IMG/VR virus record: IMGVR_UViG_3300040734_000110
Span: 1 to 37,241 of that record
Reading direction: 5' to 3' (one strand)
Length of the DNA stretch: 37,241 bases
From: a virus
Lineage: Duplodnaviria > Caudoviricetes
In this document: positions 11,486 to 28,496 of the stretch, piece after piece
Numbering within the stretch: the stretch's first letter is position 1
Layout of the letters: each line of letters opens with the position of its first letter
Notes under the pieces: generated by a model
The model's database searches: none
What the model saw: only the letters and a program-made list of their open reading frames with translations
What the model was told of the DNA's origin: nothing
Translations under genes and position numbers: made by a program

Positions 11486-12301
11486 ATGGATCAACGAAAC
11501 GGAACGATAGAACGAGCAGTAACCGCCTTGACTGGTTGGAAGCAACTTACTAATGCAATGGAACGCACGCTGGTGGACAACCTGGCAGCCACAGCCCCAT
11601 GGTTGGCACCCTTGGCTCCCGCCTATATGGCCTATCAAGCCATGATCAATGTGCTGGGGTTCCCGATCTGGATTGCCTTCGCCATCGGTGGAACGATCGA
11701 GCTGCTCGGGATCTCCACGATCAATACAGCCCTGACTTTTTGGTCATGGAATAAGCAAAAGAACAAGAGTGATCCAGCAGCTCCAATGTGGCTGGCAACG
11801 GCCATGGCGGGTTTTTATGCGGTGATCGTCTTAGTTGTGAATGTATTATTGGATCACTCGACCGTGATCGAACAAATCGCCAAGGCGCTGCTTTCCTCGC
11901 TATCTATTCTGGCAGCCATTACCCTGGCGCTACGATCACAGCACAGCCAACGGGTAGAAACAACCAAGCACTTAAAAGAAGAAAGAAAAGAGGTAAGGCG
12001 GCTATCGAAGGTTCAGAATGCAAAGAATGTAAAAACTGAAGTTTCAATGAAACTTTCGCGCAAGTTACACGAAAACCCAGATCAACCTGAAACATTCGGA
12101 AAGTGGCAGCGCTGGCCAGATCTACCGGGCGAAGAGCGGCTGGCCATCACCCGGATGAATGTACAACAAGTCATGGAACGCTACGGCATCATTGAACGGA
12201 CCGCCTACAACTGGATCCAAAATGCCAGGAAGGACCCGGGGGTTATAGGTGAACTGGCTCGTTTCCAGGAAGACCAAGAGAAATCCCAGGAGGTTGAATG
12301 A
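11486..12301 (+). CDS. Membrane protein with coiled coil and C-terminal HTH (DUF2637-like architecture)
   Basis: About four TM helices, charged linker, NVQQVMERYGIIERTAYNWIQ HTH. Confidence 0.65.
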   Translation: MDQRNGTIERAVTALTGWKQLTNAMERTLVDNLAATAPWLAPLAPAYMAYQAMINVLGFPIWIAFAIGGTIELLGISTINTALTFWSWNKQKNKSDPAAPMWLATAMAGFYAVIVLVVNVLLDHSTVIEQIAKALLSSLSILAAITLALRSQHSQRVETTKHLKEERKEVRRLSKVQNAKNVKTEVSMKLSRKLHENPDQPETFGKWQRWPDLPGEERLAITRMNVQQVMERYGIIERTAYNWIQNARKDPGVIGELARFQEDQEKSQEVE

Positions 12302-12603
12302 TCACCAACCAATCTGAATCGATCAAGCCATGGAAATGCGAGCATGGCCATGTATTAGGGGCAGTCGAACGGGTGAAGATCACCACAGCCAACGGATCAA
12401 CTGCTCACGTCAGCCGGTTAATGCTTTACCGCCAGGCGGTCGATCCGGAGGCTGATCAACCGGTGGATGTGGACGTGATCGCGGCCGTGGAAGGAACAAC
12501 GCTTAACATCCGCTGCTCGATCTGCGGGGCAGTGCGGCCATGGTTCATCGGCGAGGATGCCATCGAGAGATTGTTGGAGCGGTTCCAACGAGGGAAAAAA
12601 TGA
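12298..12603 (+). CDS. Zn-ribbon protein, Com-like
   Basis: WKCEHGHVLG...IRCSICG; ATGA overlaps. Confidence 0.6.
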   Translation: MITNQSESIKPWKCEHGHVLGAVERVKITTANGSTAHVSRLMLYRQAVDPEADQPVDVDVIAAVEGTTLNIRCSICGAVRPWFIGEDAIERLLERFQRGKK

Positions 12604-13745: not shown

Positions 13746-13786
13746 ATTATACCACCATTTACTTAATAGTACAAGAGTTCTATAAT
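13746..13786. promoter_or_regulatory. Overlapping divergent sigma70 promoters
   Basis: Plus strand TTTACT(13758)-17-TATAAT(13781); minus strand TTGTAC-17-TATAAT with TG extension (13774 to 13746). Confidence 0.65.
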
Positions 13787-13789
13787 ATT

Positions 13790-13869
13790 GGGTGCAAGCC
13801 CGGCGTTTTGGCGGGGCTGTATCCGGAGAATGAGCCACCCGGCATGATGATCATGCCGGGTTTTTATTT
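13790..13869 (+). ncRNA. Structured leader/attenuator 1 ending in an intrinsic terminator
   Basis: AGCCC/GGGCT hairpin, then ATCC..AGAA..TGAGCC, then ACCCGGCATGA-TGA-TCATGCCGGGT and TTTTATTT. Confidence 0.65.
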
Positions 13870-13887
13870 AACGAACTGGAGGTGTAA

Positions 13888-14499
13888 ATGCCATTACCAA
13901 AGATCACATACCAATTACCACTTGAGTTGGATCTTCCTCCTGATCCAGATAATCAGGATAATCCAGAAGATGTCTTGATCGCCAGTGAAGCTGCACGTAG
14001 CGCTTTGGAAGGAATGTTTGGCAAGATCGGTAGCCCACGCTGGATAGATGAGTACATGGAGCTGCGTAAGGGTGGCTGGCAGTGGCGGGTAGCTGCCTAT
14101 ATCGCCTGGGCATCCAGTCCCAAGGCCGGGCGGGAGCCAAAGACCCAGGAAGACCTGGCGAAGCTGCATCTGGGTCTGACAAGCGATCGGGTGATCAGCA
14201 CATGGCGTAAACGCAACCCGGCCATCGATGAGATGGTCAGGGTGATGCAAGCAGCTCCCCTATTCAAGCACCGGGCAGAGATCTTCACTGCTCTGGTGGC
14301 AGTGGCGGTAAGGCCAGAGTATAAGAGCCACCAGGACCGTAAACTTGCACTCGAGTTAATGGGAGATTACATGCCTGCCCGGAAAGTATTAGCGGCATTA
14401 TCCGGAAGAGATAAAAACGACTTGAGTGAATTAAGTGATGAGGAGCTGCAGGAATTATCGGCTGCCCTGGAGGATGATCATGATGACACTGAAGCCTGA
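13888..14499 (+). CDS. Terminase small subunit-like HTH protein, paralog 1
   Basis: KTQEDLAKLHLGLTSDRVISTWRKRNP and YKSHQDRKL shared with 19942..20577. Confidence 0.7.
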   Translation: MPLPKITYQLPLELDLPPDPDNQDNPEDVLIASEAARSALEGMFGKIGSPRWIDEYMELRKGGWQWRVAAYIAWASSPKAGREPKTQEDLAKLHLGLTSDRVISTWRKRNPAIDEMVRVMQAAPLFKHRAEIFTALVAVAVRPEYKSHQDRKLALELMGDYMPARKVLAALSGRDKNDLSELSDEELQELSAALEDDHDDTEA

Positions 14500-15838
14500 T
14501 CAACATAATGCCAACCGCGGAACGAAACGCGGCAAGGATCTACTTAAGCGATCCTTACAGGAATTGGGAGCCGGTCGGTCTATCCTGGTGGATAAAGACG
14601 GTCAGGTTATCGCCGGTAACAAAACCCTTGAACAAGCTCAAGCACTTGGCATGAAAATCCGGGTGGTTGAAGCCGGGCGGGATGAACTAGTGGCGGTACA
14701 GCGCCCCGACCTTGACCTGAACGATGGATCCGGTGAGGCTAGGCGGTTGGCATATCTGGATAACCGGGTTGGTGAGCTTGACCTGGATTGGGATCAAGAA
14801 CAACTAAAAAGCGATATCGAAGCAGGGTTGGATTTCGACCAACTCGGATTCCTGGAGGGTGAATTAAACGGACTGATCGATGAAGACCTCAAATCCGCCC
14901 GGATGGAAAAGGATCCTGGTCCGCAGGATGAAAAGAATGATGAAATCCTAAAGAAATGGGCGGTCAAGGCCGGTCAAATCTGGCAGATTGGTGTACACCG
15001 GTTGATCTGCGGGGATATCACGGATCCGGAAGTGCTGTGCAGTCTATTGGAAAACGACCAGGCTGTTCTGGCTTTCACCAGTCCACCCTATTGGGTGGGA
15101 AAGAGCTATGAGACCCAAAAGAGTGAAATCGAGATCGATGAGTTCATCCACCAGACCGCTATATCCCTTGATTGCTGTGTCAGAAAGGATGAGAGCCGGA
15201 TCGTGATCAACACCGGCACCGGCTTTACCACAGCTTTTGATAAGAAAGCCAAACGGCATGTTTTACTGCTGGTGGATAAATGGACAGATGCTCTGCGAGG
15301 ATTGGGATGGAACCTTCGGCACGTACGGCATTGGATCAAAGAGGGGCAACTCATGGCCACCTCCCCCAAGACAGACATCATCGACCAGCATAATGAATTC
15401 ATTGCCACCTTTGAACACCAGGATGGGAAACCACGCCAATTCGAGGATCTCTTCATTGGTGAAGATATAAATTTACTGATGACATTTTACCGGCGCGAAG
15501 GCAAACAACGAGGGCAGGAATGGACCGGCGAGAAATGGGCGCTACGTTCCTATTGGGATGATATCAAAGGGACTGCGCGAGAATGCGGCCATGAAGCTGC
15601 TTTCCCGGTGGAGTTACCTCTGCGGCATCTCATGCTGTATACAAAGGCGGGGGAAATCGTCTTCGAGCCATTTTGCGGATCCGGGACAACGATCATCGCG
15701 TGCGAAGTCATGAAACGCAAATGCCTGGCAGCTGAGATCTCGCCTGCCTATGTCGCCGCAACTCTCGAACGGTGGATGAAAATGACCGGTGTAGAACCAA
15801 AAATCTTAAGGGATAGCCATGACAACCTTGAAGCCTGA
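14480..15838 (+). CDS. ParB-like domain fused to a beta-class N4C/N6A DNA methyltransferase (SPPY)
   Basis: GGAGG SD before ATG 14480; IAGN..L ParB-like motif; TSPPY, HEAAFP, EPFCGSGT. Confidence 0.9.
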   Translation: MMTLKPDQHNANRGTKRGKDLLKRSLQELGAGRSILVDKDGQVIAGNKTLEQAQALGMKIRVVEAGRDELVAVQRPDLDLNDGSGEARRLAYLDNRVGELDLDWDQEQLKSDIEAGLDFDQLGFLEGELNGLIDEDLKSARMEKDPGPQDEKNDEILKKWAVKAGQIWQIGVHRLICGDITDPEVLCSLLENDQAVLAFTSPPYWVGKSYETQKSEIEIDEFIHQTAISLDCCVRKDESRIVINTGTGFTTAFDKKAKRHVLLLVDKWTDALRGLGWNLRHVRHWIKEGQLMATSPKTDIIDQHNEFIATFEHQDGKPRQFEDLFIGEDINLLMTFYRREGKQRGQEWTGEKWALRSYWDDIKGTARECGHEAAFPVELPLRHLMLYTKAGEIVFEPFCGSGTTIIACEVMKRKCLAAEISPAYVAATLERWMKMTGVEPKILRDSHDNLEA

Positions 15839-16133
15839 TAAACATAATGCCAACCGCGGAACCAAAAGGGGGAAGGATCTGTTGAAGCAATCTTTACAGG
15901 AACTGGGTGCCGGTCGGTCAATCCTGGTGGATAAAGACGGCCAAGTCATCGCCGGCAATAAAACCTTGGAACAAGCCCAGGCTTTGGGGATGAAAATCCG
16001 GGTAGTAGAGGCTGGACGAGATGAGCTGGTGGCAGTGCAGCGTCCCGACCTTGACCTTAGCGATGGGTCCGGTGAAGCAAGACGGCTGGCGTATTTAGAT
16101 AACCGGGTAAGCGAACTGGATCTGGATTGGGAT
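14480..16133 (+). repeat. Diverged direct repeat of about 315 bp (14480-14794 and 15819-16133)
   Basis: Both copies encode a near-identical 105-aa domain with many third-position differences. Confidence 0.9.
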
Positions 16134-17045
16134 CCGGATGTGATCAACGCCGATCTTCAGAGTGGAATCGGTTTGGATAGTTTGGGTTTCATGGAGAAGG
16201 AGCTCCAGGAGCTTACCCAGACCATCGAGAAATCCATGACCGATATTCCGGATGCTCCAATCGAGCAAGCCGCTGAGTTACGGATCAAATGGGGAGTAGA
16301 GAAAGGCCAGATCTGGCAATTAGGTGATCACCGGTTGTGCTGCGGTGATTGTTGTGATCAAAAAACAATGGCAGCTTTGATGCACGGTAAAAAAGCGCAG
16401 GTATGTTTCACAGACCCACCTTGGAATGTGAACTATGGGGGAAATGTAGAAAAAGGAAACGCCCAAGGTTATAGAGTAAGAAAAATCGAAAATGATAATT
16501 TGGGTGAAAAGTTCCCTGCATTTGTTGATTCATTTGTGAAGATGATTTGGGATGTCATTCTCCCCGGAGGTATTTTGTACCTTGTCATGGGTGCTCAAGA
16601 ATGGCCTTTGGTTGATAAATCCCTTCGTGACAAAGGCTTTCACTGGTCAAGCACAGTAGTCTGGGTGAAAGATTCGATGGTTCTATCCAGAAAAGACTAT
16701 CACACCCAGTATGAACCAATCTGGTACGGCTGGCGGGGAGATGCACCACGGATTAGGGAGGTGGTTGACAGGACCCAATCGGATGTTTGGATGATCGACC
16801 GGCCAAAGAAAAGTGAAGAATTTCCGATCATGAAACCGATCGAATTGGTGACCAGAGCGTTGACCAACTCGAGTATGGTAAGGGATATCATTCTTGATCC
16901 ATTTGTGGGAAGCGGGACAACTATTTTAGCATGTGAACAGCTTGGAAGGAAATGCCTGGCCATGGATATCGATCCAGAGGCAGTGGCGGTGACGTTGGAG
17001 AGGTGGTATTCGGCGACTAAAAAAAAGCCATGTGTGATATGTTGA
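15819..17045 (+). CDS. ParB-like domain fused to a beta-class N6A DNA methyltransferase (DPPW)
   Basis: Same N-terminal domain; TDPPW, MKPIEL, DPFVGSGT. Confidence 0.9.
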   Translation: MTTLKPDKHNANRGTKRGKDLLKQSLQELGAGRSILVDKDGQVIAGNKTLEQAQALGMKIRVVEAGRDELVAVQRPDLDLSDGSGEARRLAYLDNRVSELDLDWDPDVINADLQSGIGLDSLGFMEKELQELTQTIEKSMTDIPDAPIEQAAELRIKWGVEKGQIWQLGDHRLCCGDCCDQKTMAALMHGKKAQVCFTDPPWNVNYGGNVEKGNAQGYRVRKIENDNLGEKFPAFVDSFVKMIWDVILPGGILYLVMGAQEWPLVDKSLRDKGFHWSSTVVWVKDSMVLSRKDYHTQYEPIWYGWRGDAPRIREVVDRTQSDVWMIDRPKKSEEFPIMKPIELVTRALTNSSMVRDIILDPFVGSGTTILACEQLGRKCLAMDIDPEAVAVTLERWYSATKKKPCVIC

Positions 17046-17121
17046 CGAAAGAAATATTGTTCTTAAAAGCGTAAAAAACTTACAATTCGATGACAGTACT
17101 GGGTTTGGAGGATAAATATCA

Positions 17122-17150
17122 TTGAATTAGTCGAGGGATTCGTATACAAT
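17122..17150 (+). promoter_or_regulatory. Candidate promoter of TA pair 1
   Basis: TTGAAT-17-TACAAT; TAACA-N6-TGTTA palindrome just downstream. Confidence 0.45.
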
Positions 17151-17238
17151 CCTGATAGAGTTAACAATTTACTGTTATTTGCTCATGGGATAATAGAGTT
17201 CAATAAGGGATAAGCAAATAGCGGATTCGCAAAATGCA

Positions 17239-17820
17239 ATGAATATATATCGCGAAAAGCTGATTAATACAGTCTTGTATTTTTCACAAGAGACAAAACA
17301 TCTGAATATGACAAAGTTGATGAAACTCCTTAATTTCTTCGACTTTGATCATTTCATGCAAACAGGATATCCTTCAATAGGATTAGATTACTTTACCTTT
17401 GAACAAGGTCCTGTCCCTAAGCAATTCTGGCTTGAGATCAAAGATGGAATTCCACCTGATGATTTAAAAGGTAAAGTAATTCTTACCCCAATAATTGAAA
17501 AAGACCGGAAAGAAATTAGGTTTACGCCAAAAGCGGATGCCAAAGTGGATTTTTCGATTTTTTCGAATCGAGAGGTTAAGATACTTAAAAGACTTGCTTT
17601 TATATTTCAAGACGCAACCGCCAAGGAGATGTCTGCGGTTTCACATGAAGAGAATAAACCTTGGGAAATCACTATGAGGGAAAAGGGCAAAAACGCAAAG
17701 ATAGATTATATGTTAGCTCTTAATGAAAAATCTCCGATAAATCCTGGAGAAGCAAAAGAAAATTTACAAGATCATTTCGCCATAATTAAAGCATTTGATA
17801 TCGAGCCGTCAAAAAAATAA
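17239..17820 (+). CDS. Panacea (DUF4065/SocA-like) antitoxin
   Basis: TKLMKLLNFFDF...QGPVP...SHEENKPW. Confidence 0.85.
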   Translation: MNIYREKLINTVLYFSQETKHLNMTKLMKLLNFFDFDHFMQTGYPSIGLDYFTFEQGPVPKQFWLEIKDGIPPDDLKGKVILTPIIEKDRKEIRFTPKADAKVDFSIFSNREVKILKRLAFIFQDATAKEMSAVSHEENKPWEITMREKGKNAKIDYMLALNEKSPINPGEAKENLQDHFAIIKAFDIEPSKK

Positions 17821-17821
17821 A

Positions 17822-18241
17822 ATGCCACAACCAGGGGATATTTTCATTTTTAAGGATTTTACCTTTGAGGATGGAAGTCAAAGGGATAAATGGTTTGTTG
17901 TTCTGAATGCTTCTGATCTTGAGAAACCATGCATTGCATTAAAAACAACTTCAGTACCTGATAGATATATTGGATGTACACAGGGATGTAATAGGGATCG
18001 AAGATGTTTTTATGCCCCTGTCACATGGCAACCTTGTTTTCTGAAAGATACATACATTCAACTTCCACAAATATTTGAGTTTTCTGCTTCAGAGTTATTT
18101 TCAAACCGCCTTAGGGGGAAAATTGAATTCAGACCAGCATTATCTAGAATTTGTTTTGAACAGTTAAAAAGTTGTATTGCTGGATTCAAGGATGATATAG
18201 GCACAAAACATTGGGATCTGATTTATAAAGTAGCCAAATAA
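17822..18241 (+). CDS. Putative toxin, PemK/MazF-like fold
   Basis: PGDIFIF...RDKWFVVLN...IALKTTS; starts 1 nt after the Panacea stop. Confidence 0.6.
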   Translation: MPQPGDIFIFKDFTFEDGSQRDKWFVVLNASDLEKPCIALKTTSVPDRYIGCTQGCNRDRRCFYAPVTWQPCFLKDTYIQLPQIFEFSASELFSNRLRGKIEFRPALSRICFEQLKSCIAGFKDDIGTKHWDLIYKVAK

Positions 18242-18301
18242 CCAAATCAGTAAAAATGCTACTTACCAAAAAAGGTGGCGATATTATTTTCTATTTGACT
18301 C

Positions 18302-18346
18302 TTGACGCGCATTTTAATAAATGCTAAGATTTATTTACAAATAAAT
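18302..18346 (+). promoter_or_regulatory. Late promoter with operator-like palindromes
   Basis: TTGACG-17-TAAGAT with TG extension; GCATTT-N4-AAATGC in the spacer and ATTTATTT-AC-AAATAAAT over the start site. Confidence 0.65.
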
Positions 18347-18349
18347 ATT

Positions 18350-18430
18350 TGGCAGCCCCTGTAAGCGGAGGGGCATCCCAAGAACGGTCTGAGCCCCCGT
18401 CGTGCATTTGCACGGCGGGGTTTTTTGTTT
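18350..18430 (+). ncRNA. Structured leader/attenuator 2 ending in an intrinsic terminator
   Basis: GCCCCT/AGGGGC hairpin, then ATCC..AGAA..TGAGCC, then CCCCGTCGTGCA/TGCACGGCGGGG and TTTTTTGTTT. Confidence 0.65.
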
Positions 18431-18452: not shown

Positions 18453-18866
18453 ATGGAAACATTTGTGAGTATTTTGAAGAAAGTCAATTGGAAAGGTCTT
18501 TTAGCTGCATTGGCTGCCCTGGGCGTGATCTCAACGGCCGACTGGAAGGTTGCCCTGATCGGCCTTGCGGTCACTGTGTTGGTATGGATGCTCAACCTTT
18601 GGGTCAAGCGATCCGGGAAGAAGATCGGCCGGGCTTGGTTGACCGTGATCGTGTACCTGGTGGCAATGATCATCACCATAATCGTGCAGCCGGTGATCAT
18701 GCCAGCTTTACCGGCGTGGAATGGAGACGCAGCTTTATTTACCAACGCCTGGATCGGCTTCTTAGCCGCAGTGGCACCAATAGCTGCCACAGTAACTGGC
18801 GAAGCAACTCTTGTGTATAACAGCATTCTTAAGCAGGTGGCAGACCAGGTAGAAGTAACCAAATAG
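18453..18866 (+). CDS. Putative holin
   Basis: Multiple TM helices, AAGGAGG SD, upstream of the endolysin. Confidence 0.6.
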   Translation: METFVSILKKVNWKGLLAALAALGVISTADWKVALIGLAVTVLVWMLNLWVKRSGKKIGRAWLTVIVYLVAMIITIIVQPVIMPALPAWNGDAALFTNAWIGFLAAVAPIAATVTGEATLVYNSILKQVADQVEVTK

Positions 18867-18873
18867 GGGGTAT

Positions 18874-19176
18874 GTGATGAGCGAGAGCGTGATCAACCTG
18901 TTCATGCAGGCACCACTGGCCGGGGTAGTCGTCATCGTGGTGGTTGTATTCCTGCAATTTATCAAAGGCTACAACCAATCCATGATGACCTTCTTAACCA
19001 ACCAACAGGAAACCAATCACCAATTCCTACGGGAACAACGTGAGCAATCCAACGAAGCGATCTCCAGGCTGGCAGAAGAGATCAAGGCAGTTGGGCAGGA
19101 GGTTGCCCAGGTAAAAGGAGTGGTGATCGCTCTTGATGCTGCATCCAAGGTTCGGGATGAAAGAGGTCGAAAATGA
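18874..19176 (+). CDS. Single-TM coiled-coil lysis protein (holin-like)
   Basis: N-terminal TM helix plus coiled coil, coupled to the endolysin. Confidence 0.55.
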   Translation: MMSESVINLFMQAPLAGVVVIVVVVFLQFIKGYNQSMMTFLTNQQETNHQFLREQREQSNEAISRLAEEIKAVGQEVAQVKGVVIALDAASKVRDERGRK

Positions 19177-19940
19177 AGAGTTATTCGATCGTGCTGGATG
19201 TCTGGGAAGGTCAGTTGGAGATCGATGAAGCAGCTCTCTTCGCTGGTGGTGTGGTCGGGCTGGTGATCAGGTTGAATGATATGAACGGCGGCCACCACAT
19301 GGATGAGGGATTTGAAAAGCAATGGGCTGAAGCTGCGTCTTTCCTTCGTTGGCCATACTTTGTATACAACCCCTGGGTAAGCGGGGCGGAGAATTATGAC
19401 TGGTTAGCCAGGCATATGCCATCAGATTGTCCCGCTGTGGCTCTGGATATCGAAGTAAGAAAAACCGGGCTGGCACCGAAAGAATATGGCAAACAGATCG
19501 GGATCTTCAAAAATCTCGTCAATCAAGAGTGGAATACTCATAATTACACAGGGGAATGGTTCCTGGATGTGCTTTCACCCTGGCCGATCGATGATTACTG
19601 GTGGGCTCAATATCCGTTCTTGATGTACCCTGCTTCTGTCCAACGGATCAGTTATGAGGTGCTTAAAGCCAAACTAGACATGCTAGTCTGGCCGCCCATG
19701 AACTCGGCAAAGTCATCCGGAAAGATCCGGATGTGGCAGTGCTCAGGCGACAGGTTGATCCTGCCAGGTACAACCAGAGCGGTTGATGTGAATGTTTTCA
19801 ACGGTAACGTTGACGAGTTGCGAACGTGGTTAGGTTACAGCCCTTCTGGCACACCGATCAACCCACCCGAACCATTAACCATAGAGCAGCGATTGACCAA
19901 TATCGAGCGCGTCGCCCGAGAACATGGTTGGAGTGTGTAG
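19173..19940 (+). CDS. Endolysin, GH25 muramidase
   Basis: LDVWEGQ, ALDIE, WWAQY, MWQCS, VDVNVFNG. Confidence 0.85.
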   Translation: MKSYSIVLDVWEGQLEIDEAALFAGGVVGLVIRLNDMNGGHHMDEGFEKQWAEAASFLRWPYFVYNPWVSGAENYDWLARHMPSDCPAVALDIEVRKTGLAPKEYGKQIGIFKNLVNQEWNTHNYTGEWFLDVLSPWPIDDYWWAQYPFLMYPASVQRISYEVLKAKLDMLVWPPMNSAKSSGKIRMWQCSGDRLILPGTTRAVDVNVFNGNVDELRTWLGYSPSGTPINPPEPLTIEQRLTNIERVAREHGWSV

Positions 19941-19941
19941 T

Positions 19942-20577
19942 ATGTCACCGCTTGACCGGCCAGTTTACCAATTAATGCTGCCGTTAGAAGATATCGAGCA
20001 AGCCATCATTGAGAATGAAGGGCTTACCAAAGAAGAGATAACAGCCAGGTCGGAAGCGGCCTTGGCGGCTATTAATGCCATCCGTGTAAAAGATCCGGAA
20101 ACAAATGTTATGAGATCTCCGGAATGGATGGATTTATTCAAACGGCTGCAGGACGGTGGGTGGTATTGGCGTGTGGCTCTCTACATCGCTTGGGCAGCTC
20201 AGCCCAAAAAGTATCGCATCCCTGAAACACAGGAAGAACTGGCCACAAAGTTCCTTGGTTTAGCCAGCGACCGGGTGATCAGCACCTGGCGAAAACGCAA
20301 CCCGACCATCGACAGCACGATCGCCATGATGCAAGGATCCATGATCTATGATGCCCTGCCGGATGCCTATGCAGCCATGATCAAGGTGGCTACCAGAGAT
20401 GATTACAAGAGCCATCAGGACCGTAAATTAATGTTTGAGATGGGCGGGGTTTACACCCCGAGGATCACAGCGGAACTAAAACGGCGCGGGTTGACCGCTA
20501 AAGATGTTGAAGAAATGACCGACGAAGAGCTGGAAGAGATCATTACAGCTGCCAAGGGAAGGGAAGCTGAACAATGA
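19942..20577 (+). CDS. Terminase small subunit (HTH), paralog 2
   Basis: Overlaps the terL start (ATGA); HTH ETQEELATKFLGLASDRVISTWRK. Confidence 0.75.
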   Translation: MSPLDRPVYQLMLPLEDIEQAIIENEGLTKEEITARSEAALAAINAIRVKDPETNVMRSPEWMDLFKRLQDGGWYWRVALYIAWAAQPKKYRIPETQEELATKFLGLASDRVISTWRKRNPTIDSTIAMMQGSMIYDALPDAYAAMIKVATRDDYKSHQDRKLMFEMGGVYTPRITAELKRRGLTAKDVEEMTDEELEEIITAAKGREAEQ

Positions 20578-22109
20578 GTACAGGGATAACCCCAACTGCA
20601 GCTCGCAGCGAGCAAGCCCGTAGAACTCTCTCCAGGCGTAATTTTCTCCGCTTTGCACAATACGTCGACCCGAAATACCGGACCCCAGCTCATATACAGT
20701 ATGTCGGCAACAAGCTTCAACAGGTGGCGCTTTTCCTTGAGACGAAAGGGAAAGAGGGAGTGGGTCGGTTGATGATCGAGATGCCACCCCAAAATGGGAA
20801 ATCGGAAATGGCCAGCCGAAAATTCCCAGCGTTCGTACTGGGTCGGAAACCAGATCTGCGTGTGATCATCTCCTCCTATGGCGCAGATTTGGCCAGTAAA
20901 CACAGCCGGGCTGTGCGTGACTTGATCGTTTCGACCCAGTACCAGGCCTTATTCGGTGATCTGTCTTCCCAAAATGAACCGGTTGAATTAAGTGCCGACA
21001 GCCGGTCGGTATCCACTTGGGACTTGGCAGCTCCCCACCGGGGCGGGATGGTGGCAGCCGGTGTGGGTGGAGGTATCACTGGCCTCCCTTGCGATCTGCT
21101 CATTTGCGATGACCTGGTTAAAAACCGAGAAGAAGGCGAATCTGAAGCCAGGCGTGAGTATGTTGACGACTGGTACAAGTCGAGCGCGCTGACCAGGTTG
21201 TCACCGTATGCGGCCATCATCCTTTTCTTTACACGCTGGCATCCGGATGATCAAGCGGGACGGTTGATAAAACGAATGATCGAAGTGCCAGGCGCTGATC
21301 AATGGGAAATCATCTATTTACCGGCGGTCGCCATCAACGATTATCCCAAGACCGTCGATGAACAACGTCAAAAAATGCGCGAAGGTGTTTATCTTCCACT
21401 TGCCGACCAACTCGGACGGAAGCCCGGGGAAGCCCTGTGGCCAGAGCAATTCACAACTGAATGGCTGCTCTCCAAAAAAGCGAATACCTCGGCATATGAG
21501 TTTGAAGCCTTGTATCAGCAAATGCCGTATCTGCGGGAAGGTGGAATGTTCAAACGGGAATGGTTCACCAAGGTAACCAAAGGACCCGACAAGGTCATTG
21601 CCCGCGTGCGGTATTGGGATAAAGCTGCCACGCAAGGTGGTGGTGCCCGAACAAGTGGGACTTTGATGAGCCTTGGGGAGGATGGTTTTTTCTATGTCGA
21701 GCATGTTGCCAAGGGACAATGGTCAACATTTCAACGCGAGTCCGAGATGATCAAGATTGCGGAACGCGATTATGAGAGATGTGGTCCCTTCCCGATTTGG
21801 CATCCACAGGACCCGGGAAGCGCCGGGTTGGACAGCGCCAGGGCAACCAATGCCGCCATGGCCATAAAAGGGATCACAGCGCATTTTGAACCTGTCACGG
21901 GTGATAAAGAAACAAGGGCAGAACCTTTTTCAACCGCAGCGGAAGGCGGACTGGTCAGGCTGGTGGAAGGCGGATGGATAGAGGGCCTTTTAGATGAGTT
22001 GGTTGCTTTTCCAAAAGGAAATTTTAAAGACCAGGTCGACTCCAGTTCGTCAGCTTATACCAAGCTGCTCGAGATGAAAAAGAATAAACGGGAGAGCCGA
22101 ATCCTATGA
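20574..22109 (+). CDS. terL: Terminase large subunit
   Basis: MPPQNGKSE Walker A, LLICDD Walker B, TRWHPDD, YWDKA and DQVDS nuclease motifs. Confidence 0.95.
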   Translation: MSTGITPTAARSEQARRTLSRRNFLRFAQYVDPKYRTPAHIQYVGNKLQQVALFLETKGKEGVGRLMIEMPPQNGKSEMASRKFPAFVLGRKPDLRVIISSYGADLASKHSRAVRDLIVSTQYQALFGDLSSQNEPVELSADSRSVSTWDLAAPHRGGMVAAGVGGGITGLPCDLLICDDLVKNREEGESEARREYVDDWYKSSALTRLSPYAAIILFFTRWHPDDQAGRLIKRMIEVPGADQWEIIYLPAVAINDYPKTVDEQRQKMREGVYLPLADQLGRKPGEALWPEQFTTEWLLSKKANTSAYEFEALYQQMPYLREGGMFKREWFTKVTKGPDKVIARVRYWDKAATQGGGARTSGTLMSLGEDGFFYVEHVAKGQWSTFQRESEMIKIAERDYERCGPFPIWHPQDPGSAGLDSARATNAAMAIKGITAHFEPVTGDKETRAEPFSTAAEGGLVRLVEGGWIEGLLDELVAFPKGNFKDQVDSSSSAYTKLLEMKKNKRESRIL

Positions 22110-24118
22110 ACTTATTTCAGCAGTTATTCGTAAAGGCAGCAAGCAAAACAAATGGCTTCAGGTTCATCCCTGAATGGGTCAAGGCCGCTTTTCTACCAGT
22201 GTCTCTCCGCCGTTTATTGGATGGGTATCGGAAAAATAGCGCTGTTTCAGCCTGTGTGACAGCCCTGGCTTTTTCATTTCCAGAAGCCCCTCTCTTGATC
22301 GGATATGAGACTCCTGACGGCCGGTTTATGGCTGATTACAGCCACCCAGCCCTGAGCCTGATCAGGCAGCCAAACCCAGATATGGGAGAGGTGGAGCTGA
22401 TGCAGTTCGCCATCACCTATGCCTCAGTTGGAGGCTCGCTTTACCTGTGGAAACAGCGGGGAATGAATAATCGAGTAATTCGTTTATGGCCATTCTCCGA
22501 AGTGAATATGACCCCTTTGCCAGGACATGATACAGAAGAGGGATTCGTTCGAGGGTATGAATTTGACCCCGGAAATGGACAAGCCATAACCCTTCCCAAA
22601 GAGGATGTGATCCATTGGAAATGGATGGTGGATCCGGAACAACCCTGGAGAGGAATTGGCGCCCTCGAATTTGCCCTACGAGATGCGGATCGAGACACTG
22701 AAGCGAATGCTTATATCTATGCCTTGCTGAAAAACAACGCCGTTCCTCCAGTAGTTGTCACCCTTACCGAAGGGGAGGAACTCACTGAAGCTAAGGCAAA
22801 ACGACTACGGAACGAGTGGAAAACAAAACTTGGAGGGGATAACCGAGGTGACCTTGCGTTCCTGGAATCAGGCATGAAGGCTGAGAAGCTCGGGTTTGAC
22901 CTGCAACAACTCGCCGGCGAGGCCTTGAATGCTGTTCCTGAAGCACGCATTGCCGCAGCGTTTCGAGTACCACCGGTAGTGGCCGGTCTTAGTGTGGGTC
23001 TAAAACGATCGGATTATGGCGACCAGGCCGCAAGGAGAGCGTTCACGGAATTGACCTTGTCCGCTTTATGGCGCTCGTTGGCATCTGAGATCTGGAACGG
23101 ACTGAAAGGTGAATTCCCTGGGACACCACCGAATTACACCGCACGATTTGATCTTCGCCAGGTGCGCGCTCTACAGGAAGAAGAAAGCAAATTGTGGGAG
23201 CGGATCACTAATGCCTTCAACCGGTCACTGCTCACACGAGCTCAGGCGAAACAAGTCCTCGGGATTGAACCCGAAACCGGGGATGATGTGTATTTCGTTT
23301 CTTTGGCATCCGAATTTGTACCCGCTGATCAGGAGGTTGTACGGGCATCCTCAACTGACAAATCGATCGAATTCAAAGGTTCCAATGCCATAAAGCCAGC
23401 TGCAACTCTACGAAAGATCAGGATTAGAGAGATCGGAAAGATGACCGAAGAGGTCAAACAGTATTTCGCGCAGTTAGCCAAACGAGCCGTCGAACGAGCA
23501 CGCGGGAAGAGTAAAGACCTTAAGAGCTTACCTGCCGCAGAAGAACTGATACAACCCAGTGATAAATCAGACTTGGTAAAGATCGTCCAGAGGTTTTATG
23601 TGGAGATCTGTACTTTATCCTGGGAAACCTGGAATATCGCCTGTGGAGCGGATCTGTTGTTTGATCTGACCGACCCGATCGTAACAAACCTGCTCGGCAT
23701 GGTCGGTCGGCGGGTAAGCGATATCCAGGAAGAAACCTTGAGCGCCTTACGCCAGGTTCTTCAGTATGGATCCGCCAACGGTTGGAGCATCGAGGACTTG
23801 GTCGCCGGAGATCCAGCTACAGGTGTGCGTGGGATCATGGACGTGATCATTGAGACATACCAAGGCCGGGCACGTACCATTGCGCGTACCGAACTGGGAG
23901 AAGCCCAAAACCGAGGGACCGTAAGCCGATACCAATCCGCCGGAGTAAATCTAGTCGAGATCCTTGATAACGGCAATGATGACGATGATGATGCCTGTAA
24001 AATCGCCAACGGTCAAATCTGGGCACTGGAATATTTTTCAAGTCATTCACTGGAGCATCCCAACTGCACGCGGGCAGCTGCTCCATACTTTGGCGACCAA
24101 AAGCCTGATAGGAGTTGA
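22106..24118 (+). CDS. Portal protein fused to a MuF/minor head domain
   Basis: HK97-like portal (QPNP, NNAVP, IAAAFRVPP) followed by RARTIARTE...C...HPNC. Confidence 0.85.
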   Translation: MNLFQQLFVKAASKTNGFRFIPEWVKAAFLPVSLRRLLDGYRKNSAVSACVTALAFSFPEAPLLIGYETPDGRFMADYSHPALSLIRQPNPDMGEVELMQFAITYASVGGSLYLWKQRGMNNRVIRLWPFSEVNMTPLPGHDTEEGFVRGYEFDPGNGQAITLPKEDVIHWKWMVDPEQPWRGIGALEFALRDADRDTEANAYIYALLKNNAVPPVVVTLTEGEELTEAKAKRLRNEWKTKLGGDNRGDLAFLESGMKAEKLGFDLQQLAGEALNAVPEARIAAAFRVPPVVAGLSVGLKRSDYGDQAARRAFTELTLSALWRSLASEIWNGLKGEFPGTPPNYTARFDLRQVRALQEEESKLWERITNAFNRSLLTRAQAKQVLGIEPETGDDVYFVSLASEFVPADQEVVRASSTDKSIEFKGSNAIKPAATLRKIRIREIGKMTEEVKQYFAQLAKRAVERARGKSKDLKSLPAAEELIQPSDKSDLVKIVQRFYVEICTLSWETWNIACGADLLFDLTDPIVTNLLGMVGRRVSDIQEETLSALRQVLQYGSANGWSIEDLVAGDPATGVRGIMDVIIETYQGRARTIARTELGEAQNRGTVSRYQSAGVNLVEILDNGNDDDDDACKIANGQIWALEYFSSHSLEHPNCTRAAAPYFGDQKPDRS

Positions 24119-24121
24119 AAG

Positions 24122-24889
24122 ATGGAAATCAAGACCCTGCCTTTATTTGTTAAGGAAATCAATGTAGCCGAACGGACCGTGACCGGTATTTTTGCCGTAC
24201 ATGGAAATATTGACAGCTACGGTGATATGTCAGTCAATGGATCGTTTGCCAAACGCCTAACCGATGGCAATCGAAAGCGAGTCCGGTTTCTGTGGATGCA
24301 TAACTACGATAACCCACCCATCGCCAGCATTGTTGATATCCAGGAAGTCGAGAAAGCCGATCTTCCTGAAGCTGTTCTGAAGTGGGCTCCGGAAGCCACC
24401 GGCGGGGCAGCTGTAACCCGAAAATATTACACGGATATCCCACTGGCAGAGTGGGTCTTCAAAGGGATCCAAGCCAAGGATATCGATGAAATGTCATATG
24501 CATACGATCCGATCGTCTGGGAGCATGTGGAAGATAAAGAGAGGCCTCAATTACGCCGGATTCTCAAGGAAATCGAGCTTTACGACATTTCAGATGTGAA
24601 CTGGGGTGCGAACCCCGCTACATCAGGCGTCAAAGGCATGCCGGTGACCAGCATGACCTTTTCACAGCACTCTGCGATGGTGGAGGCCACCCTCGAAGAG
24701 TTTTTATCCCGGGTAAAAGAGCGGAAATCACACCGGGAAATTGAAGGGAGAACCTTGTCAGAGGTGAATCGGGAACGGTTAGCAAAGATGGCAACGGAGA
24801 TCGGAACCATTTTAAGCGAAACAGAACCGATGGCCGATCAAGAAGAGGTTCTCAACCAACTCTCAACTTTTTACGCACACCAGTCCTGA
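24122..24889 (+). CDS. HK97-family prohead protease
   Basis: DSYGD, FLWMH, EMSYAY, LYDISDVNWGANP. Confidence 0.9.
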   Translation: MEIKTLPLFVKEINVAERTVTGIFAVHGNIDSYGDMSVNGSFAKRLTDGNRKRVRFLWMHNYDNPPIASIVDIQEVEKADLPEAVLKWAPEATGGAAVTRKYYTDIPLAEWVFKGIQAKDIDEMSYAYDPIVWEHVEDKERPQLRRILKEIELYDISDVNWGANPATSGVKGMPVTSMTFSQHSAMVEATLEEFLSRVKERKSHREIEGRTLSEVNRERLAKMATEIGTILSETEPMADQEEVLNQLSTFYAHQS

Positions 24890-24899
24890 GGAGGACATC

Positions 24900-26138
24900 A
24901 TGAACCTGAAAGAATTGATTGAAAAGCTGAACGCGAAACGGGCAGAACTTGCCGACATCTTCGCGAAAGCCAAAACAACGGTTGACGGTGAGGACCGCTA
25001 CAACCTGACCCCAGCGCAGCTTGATGATGTAAAAGCGCGCAACAAAGAAATCGACGACCTGGCGAAACAGGTCGAAGATGCCAAATCGGCAGATGAAATC
25101 TACCAGAAGAATGCCAAAGCCATCCGCGACGGCAACCAACCTGCCACCCAGTTACCGCTTGCACAAGGCGGGAAGGAAGGAAAACCGCCTGTCCAGAGGA
25201 AATCACTAGGTGAGTTGTTCACCGAAAGTGAAGCTTATCTGGGACGGCAGCCCAAGAAAGAGATCATCGCCAGTTTCTCTGAATTTGACTTTGCCTCACA
25301 TCGGAAGACCCTGATGGAAACCGGGGCTGGTTTCGCTCCAGAAACCATCCGATCCGGACGGATCGTTGAGTATGCTCATCGGCGTCCTGTGGTGTCCGAT
25401 CTGATCCCGCAAACCACCACCGACCAGGCAGCGATCCCCTACATGGAAGAAACAACCTTCACCAATGCAGCAGCTGCCCGAGCTGAAGGCGGCGAAGCTG
25501 GAGAAAGTGCACTGGCATACACCGAACGAACGGTCAATATCCGTGAAATTGCCACCTGGTTGCCAATCACTGAAATCCAGCTCGAAGATGTCTCAGTCGC
25601 TCGATCTCTGGTGGATAATCGGCTCATGGCCATGTTGGATCTCACTGAAGAGGTTCAATTGATGACCGGCGACGGTAATTCACCCAACATCGAAGGATTT
25701 TTGGTTAAAAGCGGTGTGCAGAGCCAGGCCAAGGGAAGCGACCCGGTTCCCGATGCAATCTATAAGGGTATGACCTTAGTCCGTCACACCGGTTTTGCCG
25801 AACCATCTGCCGCCATCCTGCACCCGAATGATTGGGAAGGGGTACGGCTCTTACGCACCACAGACGGGATCTATATCTGGGGTTCTCCCGCCGAAGCCGG
25901 ACCGGAACGGATCTGGGGACTCCCATTAGTGATCACCACCGCCATCACTGAAAACACCGGCCTGCTGGGTGATTACCAGTTGTATTCTGAGATCTTCCTG
26001 CGCCGCGGCGCAAATGTGAAGGTTTCAGACAGCCACTATGACTATTTCATCAAGGGCAAATTGGCCATCCGTGCTGACAAACGGCTAGGATTGGCCATCT
26101 ACCGGGCTGCCGCATTCTGCAAGGTCACCGGCATTTAA
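24900..26138 (+). CDS. HK97-family major capsid protein
   Basis: Coiled-coil delta domain, AEGG, GDG, LHPNDW, IWGLPLV. Confidence 0.95.
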   Translation: MNLKELIEKLNAKRAELADIFAKAKTTVDGEDRYNLTPAQLDDVKARNKEIDDLAKQVEDAKSADEIYQKNAKAIRDGNQPATQLPLAQGGKEGKPPVQRKSLGELFTESEAYLGRQPKKEIIASFSEFDFASHRKTLMETGAGFAPETIRSGRIVEYAHRRPVVSDLIPQTTTDQAAIPYMEETTFTNAAAARAEGGEAGESALAYTERTVNIREIATWLPITEIQLEDVSVARSLVDNRLMAMLDLTEEVQLMTGDGNSPNIEGFLVKSGVQSQAKGSDPVPDAIYKGMTLVRHTGFAEPSAAILHPNDWEGVRLLRTTDGIYIWGSPAEAGPERIWGLPLVITTAITENTGLLGDYQLYSEIFLRRGANVKVSDSHYDYFIKGKLAIRADKRLGLAIYRAAAFCKVTGI

Positions 26139-26163
26139 GGCAGCGGCCAGTAATGAGATCAAA

Positions 26164-26189
26164 TCCCCCGCTCAGAGATGGGCGGGGGA
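26164..26189 (+). other. GNRA-capped hairpin without U tract after the capsid gene
   Basis: TCCCCCGCTCA-GAGA-TGGGCGGGGGA. Confidence 0.55.
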
Positions 26190-26205
26190 GATAAGGAGAA
26201 ATGTA

Positions 26206-27009
26206 ATGGGAAAAATCGAAGGGTCACTCGGCCCGTTATCCAACGCCGGTACTCCTGGAAATGGAACCAATGAGGTTCAGACCCTGACCATTGGCGGAAC
26301 CCCCAACGGCGGAACCTTCAAACTCACCTTTGATGGTTATACCACAGCTGCCATCACCTGGAGCGCCACCAACAACACCCTGGTAGCGAACATTCAAACC
26401 GCGCTGAGGGCATTAGCCAATATCGGAGCGACCGGGGTAACAGTGGCTGCCGGCAGTTTATCGAGTGGGATCGGTACGATCACCATCACATTCGGTGGAA
26501 ATCTGGCAAAGATGGTGGTCCCAACAATCACCGTTGCCCTGAACAGTCTGACTGGGTCATCCCCGACTTTGGCAGTGGCAGAAACCACACCAGGTGTCAA
26601 TGCGACTGAACGGGGAGCTGCCAAGGGTGCGCTTCTGATCGACACAACCAATGCCGTTCTATACATTAACACCGGCACCGCTCTCGAACCAACCTGGACC
26701 GAGGTAGGTGTGATCACATCCGCGGAAGTGGTAGCGGCCATGATCGGAACAGATGCCGTTACCGGTCCCAAACTGGCCAGCACTGCACTTACTCAGCTTG
26801 TTTGTTCAGGCAATAACGGCGCAGGGGCCTGCACTCTGACCGGCGCGAAGGTGGGTGATAAAGTGATCGGCGTGATCAACCTTACCGATGCGGCTGATGT
26901 AAAAGCATCATACGAAAGCACCATCACAGTAGCCGATCAAATCCAGCAAACAAGTGCCACCGATCTGTCTCTGAAGAAGATGGCGGTCACTTTGGTCGTC
27001 AAGAGTTAA
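26206..27009 (+). CDS. Putative capsid decoration/fibre protein
   Basis: Thr/Gly/Ala-rich beta protein (NEVQTLTI..GGTFKLTF) directly after the capsid gene. Confidence 0.6.
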   Translation: MGKIEGSLGPLSNAGTPGNGTNEVQTLTIGGTPNGGTFKLTFDGYTTAAITWSATNNTLVANIQTALRALANIGATGVTVAAGSLSSGIGTITITFGGNLAKMVVPTITVALNSLTGSSPTLAVAETTPGVNATERGAAKGALLIDTTNAVLYINTGTALEPTWTEVGVITSAEVVAAMIGTDAVTGPKLASTALTQLVCSGNNGAGACTLTGAKVGDKVIGVINLTDAADVKASYESTITVADQIQQTSATDLSLKKMAVTLVVKS

Positions 27010-27015
27010 CCATTC

Positions 27016-27040
27016 GGTGAGCGGCTGATCACCGCTCACC
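27016..27040 (+). other. Intergenic hairpin
   Basis: GGTGAGCGG-CTGATCA-CCGCTCACC. Confidence 0.5.
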
Positions 27041-27057
27041 CGATATTGAGGTGATGT

Positions 27058-27291
27058 ATGAGACAGAACAGATTACCTATGAAAGTGGATAAAACCAACC
27101 TGGTTAAGATCAGGGTTTTACCTGGTCATGGAATTGGCGGGGTTGGATATCAGAACCAAGAAGTATCACTTAATCCAACTGAAGCAGCTCATTGGGTGAA
27201 TGAAGGTTATGCCGTTTATGTCGATCCGGAAGAAACGGCTGTTGTTGAACCGACTACCCAAGAGCCGGAAAATCCTGAAAGCGAGGACTAA
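27058..27291 (+). CDS. Small head-associated hypothetical protein
   Basis: GAGGTG SD; position in the head module. Confidence 0.55.
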   Translation: MRQNRLPMKVDKTNLVKIRVLPGHGIGGVGYQNQEVSLNPTEAAHWVNEGYAVYVDPEETAVVEPTTQEPENPESED

Positions 27292-27800
27292 TGACCAGCC
27301 TGGTATCCCCAGATCAAGTCCGCTTGACCGTAAAAACCGACCTCACAGATGATCAGCTCCAAATGGTCATAGACCAGGTTGAAAGTGAAATCACCAGCCG
27401 GATTGGTGCGCCACAGGATGATCAAGGCTCGGTGCAAATTGTGATCACAAAATACGGCGAGGGAAACCTGATGTTCTTTACAACCGAGATTGCTTCAGTG
27501 ATCAGCATCGTTGAAGACGATAGGACTTTATCTGTGGATGAATACAGGGTCTGGCCTGGTGGTCAGATCCAGCGCCTTCCGGAGGATTGGAACTGGGGAA
27601 CCGAGGTTGTGACTACCTATTGTCCGGCAGACGATCGGCCGAAGCGTACACAAGTCATCATCGACCTGGTACGGATCTACATCGACCGGACTGCCCTTCA
27701 GCATGAAAGTATCGCCGGCGAGTACGCTTACGACGCGCCTCAAAGCTGGGAAGAGGAAATCCGGAAGATCATGCGTCGATTAACTTTCGTAACAGTATAA
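27291..27800 (+). CDS. Head-tail adaptor
   Basis: Position, size, ESIAGEYAY motif. Confidence 0.7.
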   Translation: MTSLVSPDQVRLTVKTDLTDDQLQMVIDQVESEITSRIGAPQDDQGSVQIVITKYGEGNLMFFTTEIASVISIVEDDRTLSVDEYRVWPGGQIQRLPEDWNWGTEVVTTYCPADDRPKRTQVIIDLVRIYIDRTALQHESIAGEYAYDAPQSWEEEIRKIMRRLTFVTV

Positions 27801-27810
27801 GGAGGTTCAT

Positions 27811-28143
27811 ATGGCACGCAGTGCATTAACAGCGCAAACCATTTCCCGAGCGGGAGTAAAGCCGAGTTATACGGCTGTGAACTCAGACGGTAATTATTTT
27901 GCCAATAATGGCCGTGAGTTTTTACACGTTAAAAACGGTTCCGGGTCGTCGATCAACGCGACCGTGCAAACACCTGGCACAGTAGATGGTCTGGGTATAT
28001 CCGACTTGATCGTGGCAGTTCCGGCTGGAGAAGAACGCATGATCGGGCCGTTCCCTTCGGGCGTCTATAACCAGACCGACGGCACAACCTATGTCGATTG
28101 GTCAGCCGCTACCAGCGTCACTGCAGCGGTTCTGTTGTTATGA
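27811..28143 (+). CDS. Small virion structural protein
   Basis: AAGGAGG SD; beta-rich sequence in the neck module. Confidence 0.65.
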   Translation: MARSALTAQTISRAGVKPSYTAVNSDGNYFANNGREFLHVKNGSGSSINATVQTPGTVDGLGISDLIVAVPAGEERMIGPFPSGVYNQTDGTTYVDWSAATSVTAAVLLL

Positions 28144-28496
28144 GCTTCGGCAGCTTTCTGATCCACACCTGCAGAATCGAGCGGTCTTACCAGACCACTA
28201 CAAACGCGCATGGACTGGGAGACAAGCGGGGAAATGTGGTCAGCGAGGATCAACGATGCCGCCTGGTAGTGAAGTCAGAGCGGATCAACCGCTCTGAGCT
28301 AGCTGAGGGAATGACCATTACAACCTATTCACTTCTCCTACCTTCAAGTGTGGATATCCAGGATAAAGACAGGATCACGAGAATTGTGCTGGAAGACGGT
28401 ACAGAAAACCCTGGATCATTCGTTGTCGAAGCCATCCTTCCCCGGCGAGGTAAAACTGTCAGGCATATATCAGTTGAGCTGAAGAGGATCAAATGA
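28140..28496 (+). CDS. Head closure (stopper) protein
   Basis: ATG 28140 overlaps the upstream stop; DIQDKDRI motif; position. Confidence 0.65.
   Translation: MSFGSFLIHTCRIERSYQTTTNAHGLGDKRGNVVSEDQRCRLVVKSERINRSELAEGMTITTYSLLLPSSVDIQDKDRITRIVLEDGTENPGSFVVEAILPRRGKTVRHISVELKRIK

What the first reader, a model, noticed from the sequence alone, without database searches (positions are those of the whole stretch)
13781..18430. Two copies of an unrecognised switch-like leader RNA gate both late operons
Seen at 13790-13869 and 18350-18430: sigma70 promoter, then GCA(A)GCCC stem with a loop ending GCG(G), GGGC, ATCC, AGAA, TGAGCC, and immediately a strong terminator hairpin with U tract before the first gene. 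The terminator stems differ in sequence but both pair. In both, the GGGGC arm could instead pair with (A)GCC(A)CC at the terminator base, an alternative antiterminator. I cannot match it to a riboswitch class I know. Inference: a new phage attenuator/antitermination element controlling methylation, lysis and morphogenesis genes.
Basis: partly seen in the sequence, partly recalled or inferred. Interest (0 to 1): 0.8.

Follow-up and report, generated by a model that had tools for sequence, protein, structure and literature searches.

The report
Zinc-ribbon-gated phage late-gene terminator switch
Two operons of this phage begin with the same short leader, conserved in dozens of phages, in which a small hairpin and a predicted transcription-stop hairpin exclude each other, and a small phage zinc-ribbon protein whose lineages track the hairpin's loop sequence likely binds it so that transcription runs on into the packaging, predicted lysis and DNA-methylase genes.

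Summary
Both leaders (13794-13869, 18352-18430) belong to a family that Rfam does not hold: 75 copies collected from related, likely Anaerolineae, phage loci, and more from an independent pattern scan. Layout: sigma70 promoter, GC(A), hairpin P1, linker, NRAGC, terminator.

ATCC (2/74) and AGAA (8/74) are not conserved, and the GGGGC/GCCC antiterminator is no better than swapped partners. The real competitor is a 4-6 bp hairpin P2 (linker against the terminator's 5' arm, NRAGC in the loop): 64/68 cognate against 34% swapped.

The likely trigger is ORF 12298-12603, a zinc ribbon. A relative lies upstream in 28/33 P2 loci and 0/9 chance matches. Loop variants need the minimum 3 changes on its tree, against 7 on trees of nearer genes. 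It resembles Mu Com only through shorter relatives and fails Pfam PF10122.

Best model: protein-dependent attenuation of late operons; binding and read-through are untested. Copy 1 is an unusual recruit at a LexA-type promoter. I found no description in 9 paper searches. This scan has noted Com-linked terminator leaders before, on other DNA.

The parts
12298..12603 (+). 101-aa zinc-ribbon protein (W-x-C-x2-GH-x-LG ... I-x-C-x2-C ... W), candidate RNA-binding antiterminator
   Evidence: Family found in 76 ORF rows of the related loci. C14, G21, C73, C76 invariant in 58 sequences. AF2 model pLDDT 89, beta-rich with a C-terminal helix. Co-occurrence and tree tests. No Pfam or PHROG family at E<=0.001; weak zinc-ribbon hits only.
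13758..13786 (+). Promoter of copy 1 (TTTACT-17-TATAAT)
13768..13781 (.). LexA-type operator-like box between -35 and -10, one mismatch to AGAAC-N4-GTTCT (assignment to LexA is recalled, not shown)
   Evidence: Box at 19 of 24 orthologous TerS-like/methylase promoters. Within 140 nt of 13 of 72 leaders vs 11 of 1000 random places. In one host genome 1 of 10 exact sites precedes a RadA-like gene and 1 is the prophage promoter; the nearest ORFs at the others are not SOS genes: inconclusive.
13794..13818 (+). Copy 1: 5' GCA and hairpin P1 (13797-13801 with 13814-13818)
13823..13842 (+). Copy 1: competing hairpin P2 (13823-13826 with 13839-13842; TGAGC at 13831-13835 in a 12-nt loop)
13837..13869 (+). 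Copy 1: intrinsic terminator (11-bp stem, U tract); ribosome-binding site GGAGG at 13878-13882 lies outside it
13888..17045 (+). Operon behind copy 1: TerS-like paralog (45% identical to ORF 19924-20577) and two N6/N4 DNA methyltransferases
   Evidence: 'TerS-like' is inferred from the paralog's position before terminase large subunit
18302..18330 (+). Promoter of copy 2 (TTGACG-17-TAAGAT)
18352..18374 (+). Copy 2: 5' GCA and hairpin P1 (18355-18360 with 18369-18374)
18384..18400 (+). Copy 2: competing hairpin P2 (18384-18387 with 18397-18400; TGAGC at 18390-18394 in a 9-nt loop)
18395..18430 (+). Copy 2: intrinsic terminator (11-bp stem, U tract); ribosome-binding site GGAGG at 18442-18446 lies outside it
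18453..36364 (+). Operon behind copy 2: two small membrane proteins (holin-like, inferred), a 255-aa protein (endolysin by position only), TerS-like, terminase large subunit, portal, protease, capsid, connector and tail genes
   Evidence: no family or PDB hit for 19173-19940 beyond an unknown PHROG; no long-stem + strand terminator listed before 36741

Best explanation
The two leaders are copies of a conserved phage RNA element in which hairpin P2 and the terminator share the same strand, and the element likely works as a protein-triggered attenuator: without the phage zinc-ribbon protein (ORF 12298-12603) transcription would stop after about 75-90 nt, and with it bound to the NRAGC loop of P2 the terminator would not form and late genes would be read. 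Shown: the conserved layout, covariation of P2, its overlap with the terminator, co-occurrence with the zinc-ribbon gene, and loop variants that follow the protein's tree. Predicted by folding: P2 forms first and is then displaced by a terminator 10-15 kcal/mol more stable, so a ligand is needed to hold it. Inferred: that the protein binds the RNA, that it is made from the delayed-early/replication operon and so times late expression, and that P1 with its 5' GC is a second contact or scaffold. Control is transcriptional, because the ribosome-binding sites lie outside the hairpins. In this phage the switch has also been placed behind a LexA-type promoter, so the methylases likely need both SOS induction and the late activator.
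For: P2 of at least 4 bp in 64 of 68 distinct cognate arm pairs vs 34% of swapped pairs; 0 of 10000 permutations as high. It holds on 35 less-related representatives (4.7 vs 2.7 bp). On an ungapped alignment not fitted to the structure, 73.8% of cells pair vs 51.4% in shuffles and 30-49% with slid partners, with 96 double-sided changes (56 distinct rows). An independent pattern scan of viral contigs, with no choice by eye, gave at least 3 further P2 pairs in 78 of 98 distinct matches vs 12% swapped. Prefix folding gives P2 first, then the terminator; forcing P2 costs 14.8 and 10.1 kcal/mol. A U-rich tail follows the stem in 61 of the 68 copies (of 75) where the strict stem finder worked. The first gene is a small membrane protein in 70 of 73. 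A zinc-ribbon gene lies upstream in 28 of 33 P2-bearing pattern loci with at least 5 kb upstream, vs 0 of 9 matches without P2. In many distant phages it ends 25-200 nt before the leader. In L312 it sits just before the promoter, and the genes behind the leader look like head genes by sequence and position (my reading, no family scan). The four loop states need 3 changes on the zinc-ribbon tree (the minimum) vs 7 on the downstream TerS-like tree (51 loci) and 7 on terminase (49 loci); shuffled labels give 12.6. AU tests reject a TAAGC clade on TerS (p 4e-5) and terminase (p 2e-4). Genes lying between the zinc-ribbon gene and the leader also do worse: 4 and 5 changes vs 2 (18 loci). Mu Com is a phage zinc finger that binds GAG-NN-CC in hairpin loops (PMC6483171, passages and section 14); 50 of 74 leaders carry GAG-NN-CC at the anchor.
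Against: No binding, transcription or expression data. The protein is not a PF10122 member, and its profile does not match Mu Com directly (4-5%). The link runs through shorter relatives: long vs short 78%, short vs Com 63%, unrelated zinc ribbons 3-24%. Five of 33 P2 loci show no zinc-ribbon gene within 5-10 kb. The HMMs used in that count were partly built from those same loci. A blind two-knuckle ORF test is weaker and noisy (20 of 55 vs 2 of 12). The 75-member set was chosen by eye. The zinc-ribbon tree rests on 97 columns. AGAGC on the methylase tree (p 0.14) and CGAGC on TerS (p 0.37) are not rejected as clades; two terminase AU tests did not finish. Copy 1 lacks GAG-NN-CC and has an atypical 12-nt loop. 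Virus Rctr41k encodes a relative, but a loose search found no leader in the 13 kb of its 41-kb record that I read.
Confidence: 0.7

Rival explanations
1. Processive antitermination: the zinc-ribbon protein uses P1/P2 as a loading site and modifies RNA polymerase, as lambda N/boxB or conAn do, so that the whole 18-kb operon is protected.
For: P1 and its invariant 5' GC are conserved but do not overlap the terminator. The leader starts at a fixed distance from -10 (6 or about 22 nt in many members). Long operon.
Against: P2 shares its 3' strand with the terminator, which suffices for a local switch. No long-stem internal + strand terminator is listed between 18500 and 36741.
Confidence: 0.12
2. 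The switch is real but is flipped by something else (a host RNA-binding protein, another phage product or an antisense RNA); the zinc-ribbon gene is a linked passenger or acts on DNA at the promoter.
For: Five of 33 loci lack a detectable zinc-ribbon gene. No direct binding evidence. A conserved small hairpin RNA gene lies just upstream of the leader promoter in many relatives.
Against: The loop sequence follows the zinc-ribbon tree better than genes that are physically closer or lie in between. The gene abuts the leader in unrelated phages.
Confidence: 0.1
3. Small-molecule riboswitch.
For: Two-hairpin 5' domain, invariant nucleotides, and an expression platform with a terminator.
Against: No Rfam match in the window or in 17 homolog loci above gathering score. 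The exact pattern is in 3 of 401 genomes of the host class: three matches in phage regions and one without the hairpin. Few invariant positions, and the loop varies with a protein lineage.
Confidence: 0.04
4. No switch: a plain insulating terminator or small RNA, with the apparent P2 arising from local duplication of the terminator's 3' arm.
For: The P2 5' arm necessarily resembles the terminator 3' arm. P2 is short and much weaker than the terminator.
Against: The register is kept across very different arm sequences. A promoter-terminator pair directly before essential packaging genes needs a way through; only chance-level promoter matches lie inside the operon.
Confidence: 0.04

Closest known systems
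Phage Mu Com / mom mRNA (Pfam PF10122; PMC6483171, abstract, passages and section 14 read)
   Same: Small phage zinc-knuckle protein; target is a short hairpin with GAG in the loop next to an inhibitory hairpin; controls a DNA-modification gene, as copy 1 does here.
   Different: Com frees a translation start; here the competing structure is an intrinsic terminator and the ribosome-binding site is outside it. The window protein has a ~45-residue insert between the knuckles, C-x2-G-H in the first knuckle, and fails PF10122. The RNA has an extra hairpin P1.
BglG/LicT-RAT, ANTAR and HutP protein-dependent attenuators (recalled, no call)
   Same: A protein stabilises a weak hairpin that overlaps the 5' arm of an intrinsic terminator.
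   Different: Those are host metabolic regulators with other domains; none of those domains was found among 52 window ORFs. This one is phage-encoded and times late genes.
Lambda Q / PR'-tR' late control (recalled) and AlpA (PMC9371919, search listing and start of abstract)
   Same: Strong promoter, short leader and terminator before lysis/late genes, opened by a phage protein.
   Different: AlpA recognises a DNA element in the promoter and binds RNA polymerase. Here the conserved, covarying signal is RNA structure downstream of the start, and no Q or AlpA family was found.
HK022 put (PMC9378689, search listing) and pLS20 conAn (PMC8191782, abstract and outline)
   Same: Structured leader RNA that overcomes termination in a mobile element.
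   Different: Those act on RNA polymerase and read through many terminators; conAn uses a large RNA element. This element is about 50 nt and overlaps its one terminator.

Membership tests
Com family (PF10122) | Pfam profile score above the curated cut-off (22.9 bits) | tested here: not met
   Window protein: no hit at E<=10; best relative 12.1 bits. None of 15 other relatives hit. Mu Com itself scores 36.8.
Com family (PF10122) | Two zinc knuckles in a small protein, with I/W-x-C first and I-x-C second | tested here: met
   C14-x2-G-H17 and C73-x2-C76; C14, C73, C76 invariant. Zinc binding itself is untested.
Com family (PF10122) | Detectable profile homology to Mu Com | tested here: inconclusive
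   Direct 4-5%; through non-overlapping short relatives 78% and 63%, controls 3-24%.
Com/mom switch | GAG-NN-CC core in a hairpin loop region | tested here: inconclusive
   50 of 74 members; copy 2 yes, copy 1 no; motif from PMC6483171 section 14.
Com/mom switch | Inhibitory hairpin holds the translation start | tested here: not met
   GGAGG and ATG lie 9-30 nt beyond the U tracts.
Com/mom switch | Protein binds the RNA | not testable with these tools
   Needs EMSA or footprinting.
Protein-dependent transcription attenuator | Antiterminator helix mutually exclusive with an intrinsic terminator, supported by covariation | tested here: met
Protein-dependent transcription attenuator | Read-through depends on the protein | not testable with these tools
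   Only co-occurrence and tree concordance.
Any Rfam 15 family (including riboswitches) | Covariance-model match at gathering score | tested here: not met
   Window: 2 weak matches elsewhere. 17 homolog loci: 8 weak matches, all far below gathering.
Processive antiterminators (put, conAn, N/boxB, Q) | Read-through of distant heterologous terminators | not testable with these tools
   No long-stem internal terminator listed in the operon.
LexA operator | Box enriched before host SOS genes | tested here: inconclusive
   One of 10 exact sites in G004 precedes a RadA-like gene. The motif-to-LexA link is recalled; one search listed no paper that I read on it.

The most novel reading that the evidence does not exclude
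A distinct, widespread class of phage late-gene control: minimal zinc-ribbon proteins distantly related to Mu Com act as RNA-binding antiterminators on a two-hairpin leader, with a simple co-evolving recognition code (TGAGC, TAAGC, AGAGC or CGAGC loop per protein lineage). That would give mutually orthogonal protein-RNA switch pairs and suggest that Com's translational role is a derived case.
Probability: 0.55. Interest if true: 0.85.

Novelty: new variant of a known kind. Interest (0 to 1): 0.74.

Why it matters
Known phage late activators act on DNA or on RNA polymerase. This points to late control by a ~10-kDa protein acting on nascent RNA, names both partners and the switch helix, and offers natural loop/protein variants that make specificity directly testable by swaps. 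It would give a function to a common unannotated phage protein family and could yield compact orthogonal transcription switches. It also gives a first handle on gene control in phages of Anaerolineae.

Tried and rejected
The P1 test in the same call is partly circular, since arms were chosen by pairing. In one search the forced copy-2 pairing was one base off the intended register. (3) Rfam. (4) Covariance-model search of 151 genomes of the host class: only G001; just 39 candidates per genome were scored, so it is weak. (5) Fold searches: one unnamed viral match (A0A1P8DJL1, E 3e-5); no PDB chain at Z>=5, which does not show a new fold. ESM Atlas gave only hypothetical clusters. (6) No RNA holder listed, and no sequencing run listed at all. 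(7) A query with the second TerS-like paralog alone found no loci. (8) Two over-loose leader finders were discarded. (9) Pairing of the 5' GC(N) with the P2 loop: third-base states do not separate cleanly; left as a lead. (10) Literature: 9 searches (listings only, except the three papers opened) showed no description of this element. The supplement of the 224-motif paper PMC5737381 could not be read, and subscription journals are not covered.
Full report
Setting. The window is a 37-kb temperate tailed-phage record: serine integrase, HTH regulators, primase, two methylases, terminase, portal, capsid and tail genes. Relatives of ORF 13888 lie in MAGs named Chloroflexota, Anaerolineales and Anaerolineaceae, so the host is likely Anaerolineae.

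Observation. Both leaders are present as described, and neither matches Rfam. I therefore gathered syntenic loci through the TerS-like protein (5, 78, 18 and 79 loci, overlapping) and read the region before their lysis genes.

The family. I kept 75 copies by eye, on an NRAGC anchor running into a terminator. The layout is: sigma70 promoter (61 of 72, vs 9 of 300 random), GC(A), P1 of 4-9 bp with a loop of 4 to over 60 nt, linker, a consensus GAGATGAGCGCC, terminator and U-rich tail (61 of 68 scored). The first gene is a small membrane protein in 70 of 73. Only G1, C2 and the AGC of the anchor are invariant in the 60-row alignment. ATCC and AGAA are not conserved (2 and 8 of 74).

The switch. 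A different helix is strongly supported. The 4-6 nt before the GAGA pair with the terminator's 5' arm, with the anchor in the loop: 64 of 68 cognate pairs reach 4 bp, against 34% swapped. The result holds on 35 less-related representatives, and on an unfitted alignment against shuffles and slid registers. An independent scan for GAGATRAGCGCC-N12-42-GGCGYTTT returned 119 loci. I read 118, and among 98 distinct matches, chance ones included, 78 extend P2 by at least 3 pairs, against 12% swapped. In the window, P2 is 13823-13826 with 13839-13842, and 18384-18387 with 18397-18400. It is the predicted fold of the nascent RNA until the terminator's 3' arm appears, and it is 10-15 kcal/mol weaker. 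The default is therefore likely termination, and something must hold P2.

The likely trigger. ORF 12298-12603 is a two-knuckle zinc ribbon conserved across these phages (model pLDDT 89). Among pattern loci with at least 5 kb upstream, 28 of 33 with P2 carry a relative, against 0 of 9 without P2; the HMMs were partly trained on these loci. In more distant phages a short, Com-sized version often ends 25-200 nt before the leader. In L312 it abuts the promoter of what look like head genes. The loop's four states need 3 changes on the zinc-ribbon tree but 7 on the TerS-like tree and 7 on the terminase tree (51 and 49 loci; shuffled labels 12.6). For that test I dropped rows with partial proteins or no downstream TerS-like gene (71 pairs down to 51 loci). 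Genes between the zinc-ribbon gene and the leader also fit worse (4 and 5 changes vs 2; 18 loci). AU tests reject a TAAGC clade on TerS, terminase and methylase, and an AGAGC clade on both TerS-like paralogs (p 0.037 and 0.002). They do not reject AGAGC on methylase or CGAGC on TerS, and TAAGC is one clade on the in-between TerS-like gene. Simple linkage is therefore a poor explanation, although the protein tree is short and binding is not shown.

Mechanism. Shown: layout, covariation, exclusivity, co-occurrence and tree concordance. Inferred: the protein, made at the end of the replication operon, binds the NRAGC loop (perhaps with P1), holds P2, blocks the terminator and lets RNA polymerase enter the late operons. 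Ribosome-binding sites lie beyond the U tracts, so control is not translational. Copy 2 is the canonical member. Copy 1 is unusual: orthologous promoters share its LexA-type box (19 of 24), but 17 carry another hairpin. The methylases here would thus need both SOS relief and the late activator. The LexA assignment is recalled, and my host check was inconclusive.

Distribution. The exact pattern was in 3 of 401 genomes of the host class: two prophages in G001, one phage region in G191, and one match without the hairpin. This argues against a host riboswitch, within those searched.

Comparison with what is known. It works like a BglG/LicT-type attenuator (recalled) built from Com-like parts. Mu Com binds GAG-NN-CC in hairpin loops and activates translation of mom (PMC6483171: abstract, passages and section 14); 50 of 74 leaders carry that core. 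Membership in the Com family is not met by Pfam, and homology is only transitive. Q/AlpA, put and conAn differ in acting through DNA elements or on RNA polymerase (PMC9371919 and PMC9378689 from listings; PMC8191782 abstract and outline). Nine paper searches showed no description of this element. In PMC5737381 I read passages only, and its supplement was unavailable, so a listing there cannot be excluded except through Rfam.

Earlier notes of this scan. Six AI notes describe Com-linked or zinc-ribbon-linked promoter-leader-terminator units in other phages. I had noted the Com-like candidate before that look-up. I could not test their loci, and look-ups by sequence and place found nothing for this DNA. 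They are not independent support, but the theme is not new to the scan.

Verdict. A real, covarying RNA switch of a family that neither Rfam nor my paper searches describe, with a named and well-supported candidate protein partner: a new variant of protein-dependent attenuation used for phage late control. Interest 0.74; best mechanism 0.7.

Noticed in passing
window 13698-13739 (- strand), promoter-like TTGTAC-17-TATAAT at 13774-13746: A long hairpin with loop TGCCCCCCTCA, transcribed divergently from the copy-1 promoter. The same loop occurs in 30 distinct contexts among the loci held, nearly all as long hairpins, mostly just upstream of the leader promoter, in several behind its own promoter. 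It looks like a conserved ~45-nt phage small RNA with an anti-Shine-Dalgarno-like loop.
   Followed up: partly
L001:9880-10000 and orthologous TerS-like/methylase promoters: A second conserved leader: LexA-type promoter, then a long hairpin with a central GCGGGCCCGC palindrome, ending in a weak ATTTAA tail; 17 of 24 loci. The window has the zinc-ribbon switch there instead.
   Followed up: partly
window 13888-14499 and 19924-20577: Two TerS-like paralogs (45% identical), one before the methylases and one before terminase. Two copies are seen in 4 of the 5 first relatives mapped. No family annotation.
   Followed up: partly
window 17239-18241 and 13173-13691: AT-rich inserted genes just before each leader promoter: a SocA/Panacea antitoxin-domain gene with a partner ORF, and a YfbU-domain gene. 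These positions are accessory-gene hot spots in relatives.
   Followed up: no
window 18337-18348: An A/U-rich 5' element (ACAA-Y-T-N-AATA-like) between the start site and GCA in 19 of 73 family members; possibly a promoter-proximal pause signal.
   Followed up: no
L034, L080, L204: Other phages with two copies of the leader; L080's first copy also has the LexA-type box in its promoter.
   Followed up: partly
window 1-1548 and 4573-5535: The phage carries both a large serine recombinase and a tyrosine-recombinase gene in the early operon.
   Followed up: no
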